Assembly: GCA_049296855.1 (NCBI GenBank)
Contig: JBAQTF010000015.1
Span: 15,112-79,111 of the forward strand
Length of the DNA stretch: 64,000 nt
Reading direction: 5' to 3'
Source of the DNA: Minisyncoccia bacterium
GTDB lineage: Bacteria; Patescibacteriota; Minisyncoccia; Phycocordibacterales; DATDWN01
Shown here in pieces: positions 49,375 to 55,745 of this stretch (its first letter is position 1; each line of letters opens with the position of its first letter). A program made the position numbers and the translations under genes. Under the pieces are notes generated by a model that worked only from the letters and a program-made list of their open reading frames with translations, was not told the origin of the DNA and did not search any database.

Positions 49375-50634
49375 ATGCTTATCTTTATGGAAAATGATAA
49401 TGACCAGATGGACAAAAATGACCACCGTGTCATAGGTAAAGAGCTTGGACTTTTTGTTTTTTCTGATGTAGTAGGCAAAGGTCTTCCTTTATATACAGAC
49501 AAGGGTGCAACAATACGTCGTGAGCTTGAGAGATTTATTGTAGATGAAGAAATAAAGCGTGGTTACAAACACGTCTCAACTCCAGATATTGCTAAACTGG
49601 ATTTGTATAAAAAGTCAGGTCATTACCCATATTACAAAGACACCATGTACTCACCTATAGACATCGATGGTGAGGAATTTATGCTCCGTCCTATGACCTG
49701 CCCTCATCATTATGAACTCTATCTATCAAAACCTCATTCATATCGGGAATTACCTGTCCGTATTGCAGAAATGGCAAAGCTATATAGATATGAAGCTTCT
49801 GGAAACTTAGCTGGACTCATTCGAGTTAGATCTTTTTGTCTTGCCGACGCACATATCATAACAACAAATAAAGAACAATCTGGAGAAGAAGTGAAGAAAG
49901 CTTTGGAACTTATTACTTATGTCGCGGGAGTTTTCGGTTTGAAAAAAGGCGATGATTTCTGGTATCAGTTATCACTTGGTGATAGAAGAGATGATAAAAA
50001 ATATTACAAAAATGACAAAGCTTGGGATGAAGCTGAGCAAATCCTCCGAGAAGTATTGCAAAACCAAGATGTAAAATTTGCTGAAAAAGAAAATGAGGCA
50101 GCATTTTATGGACCAAAGATTGATGTACAGATGAAAGATGTCCGTGGCCAAGAAAACACAGCTTTCACAGTGCAATATGACTTTATTGCCCCAACTAAAT
50201 TCGAACTTTCATACACTGACTCAGATGGTGCAGTAAAACTATGCTCTTCTGTTATACACCGTTCATCTATCGGAGCTATCGAGAGAATTATGGCTTTTCT
50301 TATTGAGCATTATGGTGGAGCATTCCCTCTTTGGTTATCACCGACACAAGTCAAAGTTATTCCAGTTCGTACAAATCATAACGACTATGCCAAAGGAATT
50401 TTTGAAATGTTAATAGAAAACGGCATCCGCGCAGAGTTTGATGACGCTGATTCAAATTTAGGCGGAAAGGTTCGAGATGCAAAAACAAACAAAATGCCTT
50501 ACTGGATTGTACTAGGAGACAAAGAAGTTGATTCTGGAAAAGTCACTCTTGAATCTCGCCATGGTAAAAAAGTTGAGATTGGAAAAGAAGAACTTCTAGA
50601 AAAACTAAAAGGGGAAATTAAAAACAAATTATAA
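49375..50634 (+). CDS. thrS: Threonyl-tRNA synthetase with catalytic and anticodon-binding domains only, lacking the N-terminal TGS and editing domains.
   Basis: DHRVIGKELGLF aligns to about residue 240 of E. coli ThrRS. The class II motifs and the anticodon-binding domain are present, giving 419 aa in total. The start is ambiguous (49375, 49387 or 49408). Confidence 0.85.
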   Translation: MLIFMENDNDQMDKNDHRVIGKELGLFVFSDVVGKGLPLYTDKGATIRRELERFIVDEEIKRGYKHVSTPDIAKLDLYKKSGHYPYYKDTMYSPIDIDGEEFMLRPMTCPHHYELYLSKPHSYRELPVRIAEMAKLYRYEASGNLAGLIRVRSFCLADAHIITTNKEQSGEEVKKALELITYVAGVFGLKKGDDFWYQLSLGDRRDDKKYYKNDKAWDEAEQILREVLQNQDVKFAEKENEAAFYGPKIDVQMKDVRGQENTAFTVQYDFIAPTKFELSYTDSDGAVKLCSSVIHRSSIGAIERIMAFLIEHYGGAFPLWLSPTQVKVIPVRTNHNDYAKGIFEMLIENGIRAEFDDADSNLGGKVRDAKTNKMPYWIVLGDKEVDSGKVTLESRHGKKVEIGKEELLEKLKGEIKNKL

Positions 50635-50924: not shown

Positions 50925-53009
50925 TTAGATATCCAGATTTGCTTTGGTTGCGTTGGACTGAATAAAACTCTTCCTAGCTGGAACGTCTGTTCCCATGAGA
51001 ATATCAAATACTTTGTCAGCAGAAACAGTACTCTCAACAGCAACTTGTTTTAAGATACGACGAGCAGGATCCATAGTTGTCTCCCAGAGCTCATCCGAGT
51101 TCATCTCTCCCAATCCTTTATATCTCTGTATAGAGATTTTAGATTTTTTAGGATTTTTAGAGTCTTTTTTCTCCTCCCCTCCCTCGCTTACTAGCTCTGG
51201 ATTTTCGGTCTCAACGGCTTCTACTTCTTCTATTTCAAGAACTTCTTCCTTACCAACAACTTTTGCCTTTTCTTCGTCAGAATATGCATAGAAAATTTCT
51301 TTGCCCTTTTTTATTTTATAAAGTGGTGGTTGAGCAATATAAACAAATCCTCCATCAATAAGTGGTCGAAAGAATCTGTAAAGTAGAGTTAAAATGAGTG
51401 TTCGAATGTGCGCACCATCAACATCAGCATCTGTTGCAATGATTATTTTGTGATAACGAAGTTTGCTGATATCAAACGTATCTCCTATTGCAGTGCCGAG
51501 AGCGATAACTAGGTTTTTTATCTGCTCTGACTCAAGCATACGATCGAGTCGAGCTCGTTCAATGTTTAAAATCTTTCCTCGCAGTGGAAGTATTGCCTGT
51601 GTTCGTCTGTCACGACCAGTTTTAGCTGTACCTCCAGCGGAATCTCCTTCCACAATAAAAAGCTCTGAGTCAGATGCATCTTTGCTCTGACAGTCAGCAA
51701 GTTTTCCAGGAAGCGTCATCCCTTCCAAGGCACCCTTCCTAAGCACAGAGTCTTTCGCAGCTTTTGCCGCCTTGCGAGCCTTCAAAGCTAAAACTACCTT
51801 GTTTATTATTGATCGGGCGTCGTCAGGGTTTTCTTCAAGAAAATATGTAAAAGCTTCAGAAAAAATAGTATTAACCGAGCCCTGTGCCTCAACCGTACCA
51901 AGTTTTGATTTTGTCTGACCTTCAAACTGGACTTCTCGAAGTTTTATGGAAATAACAGCAGTTAGTCCTTCCAAAACATCTTCACCTGTAAAATTATCTT
52001 CGCTTTCTTTTATTAAATTATTTTTTCTACCATATGTATTTAGTGTTCGAGTTAGTGCAGTTTTGAATCCTGTAACGTGAGTACCGCCTTCTGAGTTATA
52101 GATATTATTTGCAAACGCAGATAGACGACAGGAAATATCATCAACATACTGTAGTGCCACCTCAACTGATTCATATTCGTTTGTTTTCTTTTCTACATAG
52201 AAAACATTTTTGTGAATTGGCTTTAATGTATTGTTATGGAATTTAACAAGTGATAAAAGCCCTCCTTCAAAATAAAAAGACATTGAAGGAATCTCGAGTC
52301 CAAGCTCGGAGATTTTGAAAACCTCGTCTTCTTTTATTTTACCAGCGTATGTAGTTGCGTCATTTATAGTAATGCGTAAACCTTTCACGAGATACGCTTG
52401 TTGACGCAAATGATCAATCACTCTTTTAAAACTGAACTCAATGACTGGAAAGATTACCTTGTCTGGCTCGAATAACACAATAGTTCCGTTCTTTTTTGTT
52501 GTACCGATTTTCTTTACAAGAGCTTTCCTCTTTCCTTGAGAATATTCCTGCATATAAATACCGCCTTCTTTATAAACAGTAACTTTACAATAAATAGACA
52601 GTGCATTTACCACAGAAGCTCCCACACCGTGAAGTCCTCCAGAAACTTTGTAACCCCCATCTTCACCGCCAAACTTTCCTCCAGCGTGAAGTGTAGTCAT
52701 AATAGTTTCCAGTGCAGAGACTTTTGTTTGTTTATGAATATCAACTGGAATACCACGACCGTTGTCAGTAACTCGAATTCTGTTCCCAGGAAGGAGTGTT
52801 ACTTCGATATCGTTTGCAAAACCACCCATGGCTTCGTCACGAGCGTTGTCAAAAATCTCCGAAATAAGATGGTGAAGGCCATCTGTGCCTGTCGTACCAA
52901 TGTACATTCCAGGTCGCTTTCTAACTGGTTCTAGCCCTTCTAGAATCTGGATAGCATCCGCTCCGTAACTATCCTTTTTACTCGCTTTCTTTACTGGTAT
53001 CTTAGCCAT
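50925..53009 (-). CDS. gyrB: DNA gyrase subunit B.
   Basis: It has a GHKL ATPase (ISEIFDNARDE), TOPRIM (EGDSAGG), and a C-terminal tail with an acidic insertion. Confidence 0.95.
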   Translation of the reverse strand: MAKIPVKKASKKDSYGADAIQILEGLEPVRKRPGMYIGTTGTDGLHHLISEIFDNARDEAMGGFANDIEVTLLPGNRIRVTDNGRGIPVDIHKQTKVSALETIMTTLHAGGKFGGEDGGYKVSGGLHGVGASVVNALSIYCKVTVYKEGGIYMQEYSQGKRKALVKKIGTTKKNGTIVLFEPDKVIFPVIEFSFKRVIDHLRQQAYLVKGLRITINDATTYAGKIKEDEVFKISELGLEIPSMSFYFEGGLLSLVKFHNNTLKPIHKNVFYVEKKTNEYESVEVALQYVDDISCRLSAFANNIYNSEGGTHVTGFKTALTRTLNTYGRKNNLIKESEDNFTGEDVLEGLTAVISIKLREVQFEGQTKSKLGTVEAQGSVNTIFSEAFTYFLEENPDDARSIINKVVLALKARKAAKAAKDSVLRKGALEGMTLPGKLADCQSKDASDSELFIVEGDSAGGTAKTGRDRRTQAILPLRGKILNIERARLDRMLESEQIKNLVIALGTAIGDTFDISKLRYHKIIIATDADVDGAHIRTLILTLLYRFFRPLIDGGFVYIAQPPLYKIKKGKEIFYAYSDEEKAKVVGKEEVLEIEEVEAVETENPELVSEGGEEKKDSKNPKKSKISIQRYKGLGEMNSDELWETTMDPARRILKQVAVESTVSADKVFDILMGTDVPARKSFIQSNATKANLDI

Positions 53010-53202
53010 ATTTATGTGTTTTTAGTCATTCAATTATAGCAAAAATCATTACTTAAAACAAGGGAATTTTGTATGTTTTTAGCCTTAAAATATACTTGAC
53101 TTTATATATTAAATATGTTTGAATTGCTCTCAAAGACTGAGTAACACCCCGAAGCAAGAAAAACTGAAGTGGGGTTAGCCCCATTTCCCACCTTGTATAG
53201 AA

Positions 53203-53245
53203 TCCCGTACAGAAACACACGAACTCTGTACGGGGTTTTGTTTTG
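53203..53245 (+). terminator. Strong intrinsic terminator about 50 nt upstream of pheS, in the divergent gyrB/pheS intergenic region.
   Basis: The 10-11 bp stem CCCGTACAGA/TCTGTACGGG has an 11-nt loop and is followed by TTTTGTTTT. Confidence 0.6.
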
Positions 53246-53265
53246 CAAAAAATTTATTTAAAAAC

Positions 53266-53294
53266 TTGAATTTTTGTTCATTTTTCATTATAGT
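53266..53294 (+). promoter_or_regulatory. Promoter-like element: TTGAAT, 17-nt spacer, then TATAGT, abutting the pheS start codon (possibly a leaderless mRNA).
   Basis: The -10 box ends 1-7 nt before the candidate ATGs at 53296 and 53302. Confidence 0.3.
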
Positions 53295-53295
53295 G

Positions 53296-54498
53296 ATGAG
53301 CATGTCAGAACTAACAAAAGAGAAAGCTAAAAAACTTTATATGTCAGCAGATTTGTCTCATCATGAGTTCTCTGTTTCTACGGACGAACAGGATAAACTT
53401 ATTTCTGAACTAAACAGGAGGGAAGATGCTGAGGCATCCAGAATAAAGCGATATCTAGCAATGTCTGACCTATCTAGAACAGATGGTAGTCCAATCCACG
53501 AGATTATAGAGCGAGTAACAGTCTTACCCATATTTAAAGGTTTTGATCACATTCAAACACCAGAGATTGTACCAGTTAAAGAAAGTTTTGATTTATTCGA
53601 TTTCCCACTAGAGCACCCAGCGCGAAGCACTTCCGATACATACTACGTTAACAAAGAAAATATCCTCCGAACACATACGACAGTGATGTGGTATTACTAC
53701 CTCGGACGTCCAGATATAAAAGAGAAAATCAAAAAAGATGAAAATATTGGTGTACTTTCGTACGGAAAAGTTTATCGCAAAGACGAAATCGACAGACATC
53801 ACATGAATATATTCCACCAGATGGATGGATTGTACCTATGCAAAAATGATAAACACGTTATTACAAAAGAAGACTTGCAAGATGTTCTGGTAGAAGTTGC
53901 ACAGTCCGTATTCGGTAAAGATATTAAATACAAATTTAACCCAGACAACTTCCCATACACTCATTCAAGTATCGAAATGGAAATTGATAAAGATGGAAAA
54001 TGGGTTGAGGTTCTGGGAGCTGGAGTTGTGGAGCCAAGCGTACTTGAGAAACTTGGTGTTGATTCAAAACAATACAATGGCTGGGCATTCGGTTTCGGGC
54101 TTGAGAGACTTGCAATCATTAGTATGGAACTGCCTGATATTCGCCTCCTGTGGTCAGAGGATCCTCGTGTAATAAAACAGCTAAAACTTGGTAATAAGTT
54201 TGTGGAGGTTTCCAAATACCCACCTATAGTTCGAGATATTTCTTTTGTGGTGGAAAATAACTTCATTCCGAATGATTATTTTGATGTTGTAAGAGAATTA
54301 GCCCCAGGACTAATTGAACAAGTAGAATTGATAGACAAATACGAAAACGTGGAAAAGTTTGGTGCTGAAAACGTCAGCTATGCCTACCGAATCACCTATC
54401 GATCCCTAGATAGGACACTTACTGCAAGTGAAATAGATATACTGCATAAAAAACTCGAAAACGTAACGAGAGGAACTTATAATGCAACGATACGATAA
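53296..54498 (+). CDS. pheS: Single-chain (mitochondrial-type) phenylalanyl-tRNA synthetase: a PheS catalytic core with a C-terminal FDX-ACB anticodon-binding domain.
   Basis: It carries the class II motifs EHPARSTSDTYYV, LRTHTT and GWAFGFGLERLAI. The C-terminal SKYPPIVRDISFVV...YRITYRSLDRTLTASE matches the FDX-ACB domain of monomeric mitochondrial PheRS. There is no pheT in this window. Confidence 0.8.
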   Translation: MSMSELTKEKAKKLYMSADLSHHEFSVSTDEQDKLISELNRREDAEASRIKRYLAMSDLSRTDGSPIHEIIERVTVLPIFKGFDHIQTPEIVPVKESFDLFDFPLEHPARSTSDTYYVNKENILRTHTTVMWYYYLGRPDIKEKIKKDENIGVLSYGKVYRKDEIDRHHMNIFHQMDGLYLCKNDKHVITKEDLQDVLVEVAQSVFGKDIKYKFNPDNFPYTHSSIEMEIDKDGKWVEVLGAGVVEPSVLEKLGVDSKQYNGWAFGFGLERLAIISMELPDIRLLWSEDPRVIKQLKLGNKFVEVSKYPPIVRDISFVVENNFIPNDYFDVVRELAPGLIEQVELIDKYENVEKFGAENVSYAYRITYRSLDRTLTASEIDILHKKLENVTRGTYNATIR

Positions 54499-55745
54499 TG
54501 ATTGATGTAACAAATTCAATTACATATTTTTTTCTTTTCCTCTCACTAAACTTTGAGGTGTTTTTGCTTATTACTTATTTTGAAAATCGTTTGGAAATAA
54601 AAAAAGAAGAAGACTTGCTCCTTATCCCCCTCAAAAAATACCCGACAGTTACTATCATCGTCCCTTGTTGGAACGAAGAAGCTACAGTTTCCAAAACAAT
54701 ATATTCCCTACTCAATCTCGACTATCCAAAAGATAAACTAAAAATAATGATTATTGACGACGGTTCAAAAGATAGGACTTGGGAAATTGTTCAGAAATTT
54801 AAAACTAACCCACAGATCGAACTTCACACAAAAGAAAATGGTGGAAAATACACAGCACTGAACTACGGCCTGATAAAACTCAAAACAGACTTGGTTGGAT
54901 GTCTCGATGCTGACTCATACGTACACAAAGACGCACTCAAACAAATCGTTTCATATTTCCAAGACAAAGAAATTATGGCTGTAGCACCGTCTATAAAACT
55001 TTGGCAACCAAAAAGTTTTTTGCAACTACTCCAGAAAGTTGAGTATGGATTCGGCATATTTACTCGAAAAATGTATCACTACATGCAGGCTGTTTATATT
55101 ACTCCTGGGCCATTTTCTATTTTCCGAAAAGAAGTTTTTGAAAATCTTGGACCTTACAGACACGCCCACAACACAGAGGATATCGAGATTGCCTTACGTA
55201 TGCAGAAAAATGGCTACAAGATAGCTCACGCACATAATGCGATAGTCTACACTATTCCACCAAAGACCGTGAAGAAACTCCTGAAACAGCGCATCCGATG
55301 GTCGCATGGTTTTATTAAAAATGCTACAGACTATCGTGACATGTTCTTTAAAAAGAAATATGGTAATGTTGGTATGATTATTCTTCCAATGGCCAGTATC
55401 TCACTAGTTTCTGTGCTTTTTGTTTCTTCAGTCGCAATTTTCAATACAATAAGAGCCCTAGTAGATGAATACATTAAAATCAGCACTGTTGGATTTAGTA
55501 CAAACTGGTTAAGTTTCAACTTCGAGTGGTTCTATGTCAACACTCAGTTTATTGCACTTGTTGGCGTTGTAATTGCGCTTGGGTCAATTTCGATGATACT
55601 TGTATCAAAGAAAATGTCTGAAGGAAAACTCGACATAGGTATGGATTTGATTTATTACTTATCTTTGTATATGTTTATAGCTCCGTTGTGGATAGGTAAA
55701 GCTACTTGGAACGCTTTGTTCAGAGTAGAAACCCCTTGGCGATAA
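54498..55745 (+). CDS. Processive family-2 glycosyltransferase (membrane synthase-like, with a QxxRW motif).
   Basis: It has the GT2 motifs VPCWNEE, DDGSKD and LDADS, and QRIRW (QxxRW), plus multiple C-terminal TM helices. Confidence 0.8.
   Translation: MIDVTNSITYFFLFLSLNFEVFLLITYFENRLEIKKEEDLLLIPLKKYPTVTIIVPCWNEEATVSKTIYSLLNLDYPKDKLKIMIIDDGSKDRTWEIVQKFKTNPQIELHTKENGGKYTALNYGLIKLKTDLVGCLDADSYVHKDALKQIVSYFQDKEIMAVAPSIKLWQPKSFLQLLQKVEYGFGIFTRKMYHYMQAVYITPGPFSIFRKEVFENLGPYRHAHNTEDIEIALRMQKNGYKIAHAHNAIVYTIPPKTVKKLLKQRIRWSHGFIKNATDYRDMFFKKKYGNVGMIILPMASISLVSVLFVSSVAIFNTIRALVDEYIKISTVGFSTNWLSFNFEWFYVNTQFIALVGVVIALGSISMILVSKKMSEGKLDIGMDLIYYLSLYMFIAPLWIGKATWNALFRVETPWR

What the first reader, a model, noticed from the sequence alone, without database searches (positions are those of the whole stretch)
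53296..54498. Single-chain mitochondrial-type PheRS (PheS core + FDX-ACB) with no pheT partner
The 400-aa protein carries the class II PheS motifs. Its C-terminus (SKYPPIVRDISFVV ... YRITYRSLDRTLTASEIDILHKK) closely parallels the FDX-ACB anticodon-binding domain of monomeric mitochondrial PheRS (human FARS2: SKFPAVYRDISFW ... YRITYRHMERTLSQRE). The next gene is a glycosyltransferase, not pheT. A bacterium using a monomeric PheRS instead of the (alpha-beta)2 heterotetramer would be notable for aaRS evolution, and it fits the domain reduction seen in thrS.
Basis: partly seen in the sequence, partly recalled or inferred. Interest (0 to 1): 0.55.

Follow-up and report, generated by a model that had tools for sequence, protein, structure and literature searches.

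The report
Single-chain mitochondrial-type PheRS in Patescibacteria
This ultra-small (Patescibacteria) bacterium encodes phenylalanyl-tRNA synthetase as one short chain built like the mitochondrial enzyme, and the gene sits where related bacteria keep the usual two-subunit genes, so it very probably replaces them and drops the proofreading subunit.

Summary
Window 53296-54498 (+) encodes a 400-aa protein with a PheS-type class II core (aa 63-295) fused to a true FDX-ACB anticodon-binding domain (aa 306-400). Its best solved relative, by sequence and by predicted fold, is human mitochondrial PheRS (TM 0.74 to the closed form).

The gene belongs to a very conserved family found in at least 567 GTDB species of Parcubacteria/Paceibacteria-type Patescibacteria. 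Its Phe-pocket and ATP-site residues are invariant in 239 family members, and one pocket pair shows perfect compensatory covariation. This separates it from the related "mystery ligase" SrmL.

No pheT-like sequence lies in about 79 kb of this species or within ±10 kb of the gene in 80 other species. The gene is linked to gyrB in most loci, whereas a canonical relative has pheS-pheT-gyrB, which points to replacement at the same position.

I could not test absence of pheT across the whole genome, and canonical pheST does exist in other Paceibacteria.

I found no paper describing a bacterial monomeric PheRS.

Verdict: a new bacterial member of the monomeric PheRS kind, probably the sole, editing-free PheRS. 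It may bear on the origin of mitochondrial PheRS.

The parts
53296..54498 (+). Single-chain PheRS gene (400 aa plus stop). Alternative starts: TTG at 53266, and ATG at 53302 as used in the NCBI model.
53296..53481 (+). N-terminal region, aa 1-62: three short helices with the family motif R-I-K-R-Y-L-x-M-x-D-L-S-R-T-x-G-S-P. No long PheS coiled-coil domain (PF02912) is detected.
   Evidence: Pfam; alignment; AF2 secondary structure
53482..54180 (+). Class II PheS-type catalytic core (PF01409), aa 63-295. Motif 2 is G-K-V-Y-R161-K-D...F-H-Q-M-D. The pocket includes F219-P-Y-T. Motif 3 is G-W-A264-F-G-F-G-L-E-R271.
54181..54210 (+). Short linker, aa 296-305 (L-K-L-G-N-K-F-V-E-V). It starts at the position where E. 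coli PheS ends (...L-K-Q-F-K).
54211..54495 (+). FDX-ACB anticodon-binding domain (PF03147), aa 306-400. It is homologous to domain B8 of PheT and to the C-terminal domain of mitochondrial PheRS.
53010..53295 (.). Intergenic region between divergent gyrB and PheRS. It holds a promoter-like site (53266-53294) and, upstream of it, two strong hairpins; the second (about 53196-53245) is followed by a T-run.
   Evidence: z = -4.7; no Rfam family; conserved only in the same species
50925..53009 (-). gyrB, the conserved syntenic neighbour of the fused PheRS. It lies within 1.5 kb in 57 of 81 loci.
54498..55745 (+). GT2 glycosyltransferase. Its start overlaps the PheRS stop (TAATG), so it is probably co-transcribed. 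This is the gene that sits where pheT would be expected.
49375..50634 (+). Context: ThrRS reduced to catalytic and anticodon-binding domains, with no TGS or editing domain. It is a second editing-free synthetase in the same neighbourhood.

Best explanation
The gene encodes the organism's housekeeping phenylalanyl-tRNA synthetase in a single-chain form that works like mitochondrial PheRS.

Inferred mechanism, by homology: the class II core activates Phe with ATP and transfers it to tRNA-Phe. The fused C-terminal FDX-ACB domain reads the GAA anticodon. In ordinary bacteria that job is done by domain B8 of the beta subunit PheT. By analogy with human mitochondrial PheRS, the anticodon-binding domain docks on the core in a closed resting state and swings open on tRNA binding.

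There is no B3/B4 editing domain, so accuracy depends on the active site alone.

In this Parcubacteria lineage the gene has taken the chromosomal place of pheS-pheT next to gyrB, so no pheT partner is expected.

Shown here: architecture, predicted fold, residue conservation, distribution, synteny, and local absence of pheT. Inferred: monomeric activity, closed/open switching, lack of editing, and genome-wide absence of pheT.
For: Domains and fold:
- PF01409 plus PF03147 lie in one ORF.
- The best PDB sequence match is human mitochondrial PheRS, through both domains.
- The AF2 model (pLDDT 90.8, pTM 0.86) superposes on closed mitochondrial PheRS 3CMQ at TM 0.74 over 388 columns. Against the open tRNA-bound 3TUP it gives TM 0.56. 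Bacterial alpha chains match the core only.

Housekeeping-type conservation:
- 5890 homologues score E<1e-10, and the best 120 all have the two-domain form.
- At least 567 GTDB species representatives encode it.
- Mean column identity across a 27-sequence sample of the family is 68%.
- H107, R110, R161, D163, H169, F173, H174, Q175, G178, F219, P220, T222, W263, A264, F265, G266, G268 and R271 are invariant in 239 family sequences.
- Positions 128 and 177 covary perfectly: T/D in 173 sequences, D/G in 34, and no G177 without D128.

No partner nearby:
- E. coli PheT tblastn against the window plus 80 loci (1.23 Mb) gives no B1, B3/4 or B5 hit.
- Flanks from a second MAG of the same species add about 15 kb with no pheT.
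- No second PheS-like gene occurs in 82 loci.

Positional replacement:
- gyrB lies within 1.5 kb in 57 of 81 loci. In 25 of these the order is PheRS then gyrB, with a 5-nt gap in L088.
- The canonical Paceibacterales bin PMX.50 has pheS-pheT-gyrB (PMC9763046 supplement).
- The fully listed canonical bin PMX_810_sub (866 genes) has pheST and no fused gene (PMC10936435 Table S2).

Precedent: in diatom plastids a monomer-type PheRS allowed repeated loss of the beta-subunit gene syfB (PMC4494062).
Against: - I could not read the whole genome, so a pheST elsewhere is not excluded.
- Canonical pheST exists in other Paceibacteria. MAGs carrying the same loose name 'Nealsonbacteria' show either type.
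- The window protein scores below the curated cutoffs of TIGR00469 pheS_mito (227 against 258) and TIGR00468 pheS (179 against 237). Its top NCBIfam hit is the 'mystery ligase' SrmL, though also below cutoff (243 against 300).
- Two pocket positions differ from canonical PheRS: Y221 replaces the second Phe of the F-P-F motif, and D177 (or G177) stands where all five canonical PheS have Glu (some eukaryote-type sequences also have Asp).
- No tRNA-Phe gene was seen in the DNA held.
- There are no biochemical data.
Confidence: 0.75

Rival explanations
1. Extra paralogue. The genome keeps a canonical pheS-pheT elsewhere, and this fused protein is a redundant or specialised second PheRS.
For: Canonical pheST occurs in some Paceibacterales bins. 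Whole-genome absence was not tested. In the 'Oligoflexia' MAG the relative P0125 sits among metabolic genes, away from gyrB, as an acquired extra copy might.
Against: The gene occupies the gyrB-linked position that pheST has in PMX.50. The one fully listed canonical genome has no fused copy. There is no pheT in about 79 kb of this species or in 80 other loci. Conservation is at housekeeping level, with invariant catalytic residues in at least 567 species that have very small genomes.
Confidence: 0.12
2. SrmL-like 'mystery ligase'. The protein uses the PheRS scaffold to ligate something other than Phe, or acts on something other than tRNA-Phe.
For: The highest NCBIfam score is to NF051887 SrmL (243 bits). 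It shares Y221 and D177 with SrmL.
Against: The score is below the SrmL cutoff of 300, whereas true SrmL proteins score 375-415. SrmL differs at five pocket or active-site positions (107 N/S, 178 I/V/M, 219 H, 263 L, 265 L/S/M), and at all five this family keeps the PheRS residues H, G, F, W, F in all 239 sequences. SrmL also falls outside the 94%-supported clade that holds this family.
Confidence: 0.05
3. Not truly stand-alone. The enzyme needs a small trans-acting partner, such as the free-standing B2-like tRNA-binding protein encoded just upstream of the gene in a sub-clade.
For: A 130-148 aa PF01588 tRNA_bind ORF abuts the gene in 9 of 80 loci. It belongs to a large family of stand-alone proteins found on the same contigs as the fused PheRS.
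Against: No such ORF lies in the window or in most loci. By my own knowledge, B2 is dispensable in E. coli PheRS (Roy & Ibba 2006, cited in PMC5370408) and mitochondrial PheRS works alone.
Confidence: 0.08
4. Artefact. A frameshift, mis-assembly or gene-calling error has joined pheS to the 3' end of pheT.
For: None found.
Against: The identical gene occurs in independent assemblies. Thousands of homologues have the same length and junction. The AF2 model is confident through the linker.
Confidence: 0.01

Closest known systems
Mitochondrial / organellar monomeric PheRS (human FARS2, yeast MSF1; TIGR00469 pheS_mito; 'PheRS-M' of AARS Online)
   Same: One chain of about 400 aa with a PheS-type core followed by a short linker and an FDX-ACB domain. 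No B1-B7 domains and no editing domain. The predicted fold matches the closed form of 3CMQ (TM 0.74). The catalytic and Phe-pocket residues are shared. The family's 50%-identity representative P0121 passes the TIGR00469 cutoff (264 against 258).
   Different: It is encoded in a bacterial genome next to gyrB and has no targeting peptide. It has its own N-terminal motif and lacks the eukaryote-type core insertion. The F-P-F motif reads F-P-Y. The window protein itself is below the TIGR00469 cutoff. In the core tree the family forms a separate bacterial clade with code-25 CPR and 'Oligoflexia'-type sequences (94%), while the eukaryote type forms its own clade (78%). Core identity to the eukaryote type is only 33-43%.
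Canonical bacterial (alpha-beta)2 PheRS: PheS (TIGR00468) with PheT (TIGR00472)
   Same: The core is homologous to PheS (34% identity to E. coli over 233 aa). The C-terminal domain is homologous to PheT domain B8 (28% identity). The reaction is presumably the same.
   Different: There is no PF02912 N-terminal coiled coil. The protein scores below the TIGR00468 cutoff. The anticodon-binding domain is in cis. No pheT is adjacent in any of 81 loci, and there is no B3/B4 editing domain.
SrmL, 'PheS-related mystery ligase' (NCBIfam NF051887)
   Same: It has the same two-domain bacterial architecture, a similar length, and gives the highest NCBIfam bit score.
   Different: The score is below the cutoff. 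Five pocket or active-site positions differ. It falls outside the 94%-supported clade that holds this family.
Replacement of plastid heterotetrameric PheRS by a monomer-type PheRS in diatoms, with loss of syfB (PMC4494062)
   Same: The evolutionary logic is the same: a single-chain PheRS makes the beta-subunit gene dispensable.
   Different: That case is a retargeted eukaryotic nuclear gene. This case is a free-standing bacterial genome, with replacement at the pheST locus.

Membership tests
Monomeric (mitochondrial-type) PheRS, TIGR00469 / PheRS-M | PheS-type class II core with motifs 1-3 and the Phe pocket | tested here: met
   PF01409 E 1.9e-57. R161, F-H-Q, F-P-x-T, G-W-A-F-G and R271 are invariant in the family.
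Monomeric (mitochondrial-type) PheRS, TIGR00469 / PheRS-M | FDX-ACB anticodon-binding domain fused to the C-terminus of the same chain | tested here: met
   PF03147 at aa 306-400, E 2.1e-19. It aligns with the C-terminal domain of human mitochondrial PheRS.
Monomeric (mitochondrial-type) PheRS, TIGR00469 / PheRS-M | Whole-protein score above the curated TIGR00469 cutoff (258.35 bits) | tested here: not met
   The window protein scores 227.3 bits. Family members range from 220 to 264, and only some pass, such as P0121 at 264.3.
Monomeric (mitochondrial-type) PheRS, TIGR00469 / PheRS-M | Two-domain fold like the solved mitochondrial PheRS | tested here: met
   AF2 pLDDT 90.8. Foldseek top hits are 3CMQ and variants, TM 0.74, 388 columns, rmsd 3.4 Å.
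Monomeric (mitochondrial-type) PheRS, TIGR00469 / PheRS-M | Works without a beta subunit (no pheT in the genome) | tested here: inconclusive
   There is no pheT in about 79 kb of this species or in ±10 kb in 80 species, and the gene sits at the pheST/gyrB position.
Monomeric (mitochondrial-type) PheRS, TIGR00469 / PheRS-M | Monomeric, and charges tRNA-Phe with Phe | not testable with these tools
   Needs SEC-MALS and an aminoacylation assay.
Canonical bacterial PheS alpha subunit (TIGR00468) | Score above the cutoff of 237.45 bits, and the N-terminal PF02912 domain | tested here: not met
   Score is 179 bits. Pfam finds no PF02912.
Canonical bacterial PheS alpha subunit (TIGR00468) | Operon partner pheT adjacent | tested here: not met
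   The downstream gene is GT2. No PheT B1, B3/4 or B5 hit occurs in 81 loci.
SrmL, PheS-related mystery ligase (NF051887) | Score above the cutoff of 300 bits | tested here: not met
   Score is 243.3 bits. True SrmL proteins score 375-415.
SrmL, PheS-related mystery ligase (NF051887) | SrmL-type pocket residues (H at 219, L at 263, L/S/M at 265, N/S at 107) | tested here: not met
   The window family has F219, W263, F265 and H107, invariant in 239 sequences.

The most novel reading that the evidence does not exclude
The single-chain PheRS may be an old bacterial invention rather than a eukaryote-specific fusion. On this reading, the PheS-core-plus-FDX-ACB fusion arose once. It survives in Patescibacteria (Parcubacteria and code-25 lineages), in a few other bacteria, and in the SrmL offshoot. 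Mitochondrial PheRS (FARS2/MSF1), whose bacterial source has never been identified, would descend from this bacterial lineage. In Parcubacteria the fused gene displaced pheS-pheT at the same locus next to gyrB, producing free-living-type bacteria whose only PheRS has no editing domain.

The evidence does not exclude this:
- All fused forms separate from canonical PheS with 100% bootstrap.
- The bacterial fused groups branch outside the 78%-supported eukaryote clade.
- The family's FDX-ACB profile scores eukaryote-type domains at 78-88 bits, against 28 bits for E. coli PheT domain B8.

The tree is a neighbour-joining tree with only five canonical outgroups and no canonical CPR PheS. Independent fusions, or transfer from eukaryotes to bacteria, therefore remain open.
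Probability: 0.35. Interest if true: 0.75.

Novelty: new member of a known kind. Interest (0 to 1): 0.6.

Why it matters
PheRS is the textbook exception among aminoacyl-tRNA synthetases. It is an (alpha-beta)2 heterotetramer in every cellular cytoplasm described, and the monomeric form is regarded as an organelle peculiarity.

A large bacterial radiation whose cytoplasmic PheRS is the single-chain, editing-free form would change that picture in four ways:
1. The heterotetramer and its B3/B4 proofreading would not be obligatory for a cell.
2. Together with the editing-less ThrRS next door, it would add PheRS to the signs of relaxed translational quality control in ultra-small bacteria.
3. It would supply bacterial relatives with which the unexplained origin of mitochondrial PheRS can be tested phylogenetically.
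4. It would explain a practical problem. pheT (TIGR00472, B5) is a standard single-copy marker that would be systematically "missing" in these genomes. The gene itself is mostly labelled "hypothetical protein" because it falls between curated model cutoffs.

Tried and rejected
Literature:
- Ten searches found no paper reporting a monomeric PheRS in bacteria or CPR.
- AARS Online, Douglas 2023, Mukai 2017, Méheust 2019, Kantor 2013 and Nelson & Stegen 2015 do not mention one.

Attempts to prove genome-wide absence of pheT:
- No tool gives whole MAGs.
- I could not obtain a Parcubacteria PheT sequence to use as a query. A search with the B2-like ORF returned only stand-alone small proteins.
- Cluster look-ups of 30 representatives gave almost no organism names.
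- The M. archaeiphilus annotation table is held only in part, and the held part has no Phe entries.
- The supplement of PMC9530719 had nothing relevant.
- The AlphaFold database library was not available for a fold search.

Ideas rejected:
- I first took the closest sequences lacking a detectable FDX-ACB (P0189, P0240, P0246, P0254, P0178) for canonical PheS. Reading them showed they are truncated eukaryote-type proteins.
- I asked whether the upstream hairpins are a T-box or another known leader. No Rfam family matches, and they are not conserved beyond the species.
- I looked for tRNA-Phe near the gene. None is present in the window or in 60 loci.
- One look-up of a window-end protein (BacA) failed because its annotated start differs.

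Full report
**What is at the coordinates**

The ORF 53296..54498 (+) gives a 400-aa protein. NCBI's model of the identical protein, P0001, is labelled "hypothetical protein WAX85_03320 [Minisyncoccia bacterium]". It starts two codons later and is 398 aa.

Pfam finds two domains. The PheS-type class II core PF01409 covers aa 63-295 (E 1.9e-57). [quoted passage not shown]

The best match among solved structures is human mitochondrial PheRS, at E about 4e-59 and aligned through both domains. The best bacterial alpha subunit scores 2e-39 and matches the core only.

Against E. coli, the core is 34% identical to PheS. The alignment ends at the PheS C-terminus (...LKQFK), where the window protein continues into the linker. 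The C-terminal 105 aa align with PheT domain B8 at 28% identity.

**Structure**

An AlphaFold2 model built on a 27-sequence family alignment is confident (pLDDT 90.8, pTM 0.86). Foldseek against the PDB puts the closed form of human mitochondrial PheRS first (3CMQ, TM 0.74, 388 aligned columns, rmsd 3.4 Å). The open tRNA-bound form 3TUP gives TM 0.56. Bacterial alpha chains align only over the core, about 235-250 columns.

The first 62 residues form three short helices. Pfam does not detect the PheS N-terminal domain PF02912.

**Is it a PheRS or a look-alike?**

NCBIfam ranks three models, all below their cutoffs:
- SrmL "PheS-related mystery ligase": 243 bits against 300.
- pheS_mito: 227 against 258.
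- pheS: 179 against 237.

I aligned 239 bacterial family members, 25 eukaryote-type sequences, 5 canonical PheS and 5 true SrmL proteins (which score 375-415 bits) to a family profile.

In the 239 family members the following residues are invariant: H107, R110, R161 (motif 2), D163, H169, F173-H174-Q175, G178, F219-P220, T222, W263-A264-F265-G266, G268 and R271 (motif 3). They match canonical and mitochondrial PheRS, except that position 263 is Phe in canonical PheS.

SrmL differs at positions 107, 178, 219 (His), 263 (Leu) and 265 (Leu/Ser/Met).

The family's own departures are mild. Y221 replaces the second Phe of the F-P-F motif. D177 stands where all five canonical PheS have Glu; some eukaryote-type sequences also have Asp there.

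In 34 sequences D177 is Gly, and every one of these has Asp at position 128. In the other 205, D177 is present and 128 is not Asp. This perfect compensation argues that a carboxylate in the amino-acid site is under selection, as expected for a working synthetase.

From established knowledge of T. thermophilus and E. coli PheRS, the F-P-F and A-F-G residues form the phenyl-ring pocket, and the Ala (E. coli A294) sets its size.

**Distribution**

The protein database holds 5890 homologues at E<1e-10. The best 120 all have the two-domain form, are 359-451 aa long and 63-100% identical, and where named come from Patescibacteria: Zambryski-, Nomurabacteria, Paceibacterota, Minisyncoccia.

The 80 best are almost all Parcubacteria-type MAGs.

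A second search reached Wolfe-, Staskawicz-, Nealson- and Portnoybacteria.

In the 50%-identity representative library the whole Parcubacteria family collapses to essentially one representative (P0121, 62% identity). Nearly all of the next 149 representatives also carry the core plus FDX-ACB:
- Eukaryote mitochondrial-type proteins, for example from Salpingoeca and Pteridium.
- An "Oligoflexia" MAG protein (P0125).
- Two proteins with Trp at conserved Gly positions (P0123, P0127). These are most simply read as UGA=Gly (code 25) Gracilibacteria or Absconditabacteria.
- SrmL proteins.

The few representatives lacking a detectable FDX-ACB are, apart from P0259 (a canonical PheS core fused to a receiver domain), fragments or truncated eukaryote-type models. 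No other canonical PheS anywhere in that library reaches the listed range of about 143 bits or more.

**Is there a pheT partner?**

Within the window none of the 39 ORFs of at least 150 aa is pheT-like.

tblastn with E. coli PheT against the window plus 80 loci (1.23 Mb) gave no hit to B1, B3/4 or B5. The only hits were the gene's own FDX-ACB/core-like region and, in 9 loci, a small upstream ORF matching B2.

A second MAG of the same species (GCA_049297715.1) extends the view by about 10 kb to the right and about 4.6 kb to the left. It shows ribonucleotide reductase, pentose-phosphate genes, HisRS and TruB, and no pheT.

No locus holds a second PheS-like gene.

The strongest indirect evidence is synteny. 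gyrB lies within 1.5 kb of the gene in 57 of 81 loci and within 5 kb in 67. In 32 loci the two genes are divergent, as in the window. In 25 the order is PheRS then gyrB. In the Nealsonbacteria-type locus L088 the gap is 5 nt.

The canonical Paceibacterales bin PMX.50 has consecutive genes pheS (00316), pheT (00317) and gyrB (00318) (PMC9763046 supplement). The fused gene thus occupies the place of pheS-pheT.

Conversely, the bin PMX_810_sub, whose full 866-gene table is held, has adjacent pheT and pheS and no other Phe-tRNA ligase entry (PMC10936435 Table S2).

I could not read any whole genome that carries the fused gene, so genome-wide absence remains an inference. I put it at about 85%.

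**Relationship to mitochondrial PheRS**

I built a core-only neighbour-joining tree (222 columns, 200 bootstraps). Bootstrap support:

| Grouping | Support |
|---|---|
| Five canonical PheS separated from all fused forms | 100% |
| Parcubacteria family | 100% |
| Parcubacteria family + code-25 proteins + P0125/P0126 | 94% |
| Eukaryote-type sequences | 78% |

SrmL is a further group, and its placement is unresolved.

Raw core identity of the window protein is 33-39% to canonical PheS and 33-43% to the eukaryote type, so the core alone is only marginally closer to the mitochondrial type.

The family's FDX-ACB profile scores eukaryote-type domains at 78-88 bits, against 28 bits for E. coli B8.

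This fits a single ancient fusion shared by bacteria and mitochondria. The method and the outgroup sampling are too weak to settle it, and no canonical CPR PheS or PheT could be included.

**Mechanism**

The mechanism is proposed by homology. Activation of Phe and transfer to tRNA-Phe by the core follow from the conserved class II motifs and pocket. Anticodon reading by the cis FDX-ACB domain follows from the role of B8 and of the mitochondrial C-terminal domain.

The closed-to-open domain swing is taken from the human enzyme. The PDB entry titles for 3CMQ and 3TUP appear, and Klipcan et al. 2008 is cited. It is supported here only by the model resembling the closed state.

Absence of the B3/B4 domain means no post-transfer editing. 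The adjacent ThrRS also lacks its editing domain.

**Known or new?**

Ten full-text searches and six targeted readings found no description of a bacterial or CPR monomeric PheRS. Current classifications list PheRS-M as the mitochondrial form.

Databases already hint at it. JGI calls these proteins "alpha chain", a few NCBI records say "Phenylalanine--tRNA ligase", and some members pass the pheS_mito model.

I rate it a new bacterial member of the monomeric PheRS kind. Interest is moderate to high, because it challenges the assumed universality of the heterotetramer in cells and gives a handle on the origin of FARS2.

Noticed in passing
L012 2920-3366, L013 5104-5532, L015 9607-10005, L017 9570-9965, L030 8682-9074, L033 1127-1534, L036 310-735, L057 688-1104, L066 9560-9967 (not in the window): In a sub-clade, a 130-148 aa stand-alone tRNA_bind (PF01588) ORF lies immediately upstream of the fused PheRS, often overlapping it. 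It is 31-41% identical to domain B2 of E. coli PheT. It belongs to a large family (at least 120 clusters, all 130-186 aa) found on the same contigs as the fused PheRS, and JGI often labels it 'PheRS beta chain'. It may be a free-standing remnant of PheT or a trans-acting tRNA-binding helper.
   Followed up: partly
window 49375-50634 (+): ThrRS is only 419 aa, with catalytic and anticodon-binding domains and no TGS or editing domain (it matches TIGR00418 positions 163-564). It is a second editing-free synthetase 2.7 kb from the PheRS.
   Followed up: partly
window 53095-53260 (+), between gyrB and PheRS: This is a strongly structured stretch (MFE -53 kcal/mol, z = -4.7) with two hairpins. The second (about 53196-53245) is followed by a T-run, like an intrinsic terminator, and lies upstream of a promoter-like site at 53266-53294. 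No Rfam family matches, and it is conserved only in the same species (L082). It could be a small RNA or a leader.
   Followed up: partly
window 50925-53009 and loci L001-L088: The gyrB-PheRS linkage is conserved in two orientation classes: 32 loci divergent and 25 co-directional. A GT2 gene abuts the PheRS in 22 loci, and tRNA-Thr(TGT) lies a few kb away in many loci.
   Followed up: yes
family alignment, window residues 128 and 177 (window nt 53677-53679 and 53824-53826): There is perfect compensatory covariation in the amino-acid site. Of 239 family sequences, 205 have D177 with no Asp at 128 (Thr in 173), 34 have D128 with G177, and none has G177 without D128.
   Followed up: yes
proteins P0123 and P0127 (metagenomic relatives, 39-48% identical): These carry Trp at positions that are invariant Gly in the family (for example S-W-W-K-V-Y-R and G-I-W-V-E-R). 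This is the signature of UGA=Gly (code 25) genomes translated with the wrong table, so Gracilibacteria or Absconditabacteria-type CPR probably have the single-chain PheRS too.
   Followed up: no
protein P0125, locus L087 10001-11245 (GCA_019694465.1, 'Oligoflexia bacterium' MAG): A 414-aa relative (43% identical) lies in a non-CPR-looking metabolic neighbourhood, with no gyrB or pheT nearby. It may be a horizontally acquired copy, or a binning question.
   Followed up: partly
proteins P0154 (872 aa) and P0171 (704 aa), from the representative search: Eukaryote-type single-chain PheRS modules with long N-terminal additions. P0154 has an AlaRS-like class II core (PF01411) in front. I did not check whether these are real fusions or merged gene models.
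   Followed up: no
window 54496-54500: The PheRS stop codon and the GT2 start codon overlap (TAATG), suggesting translational coupling of a synthetase with a membrane glycosyltransferase.
   Followed up: partly
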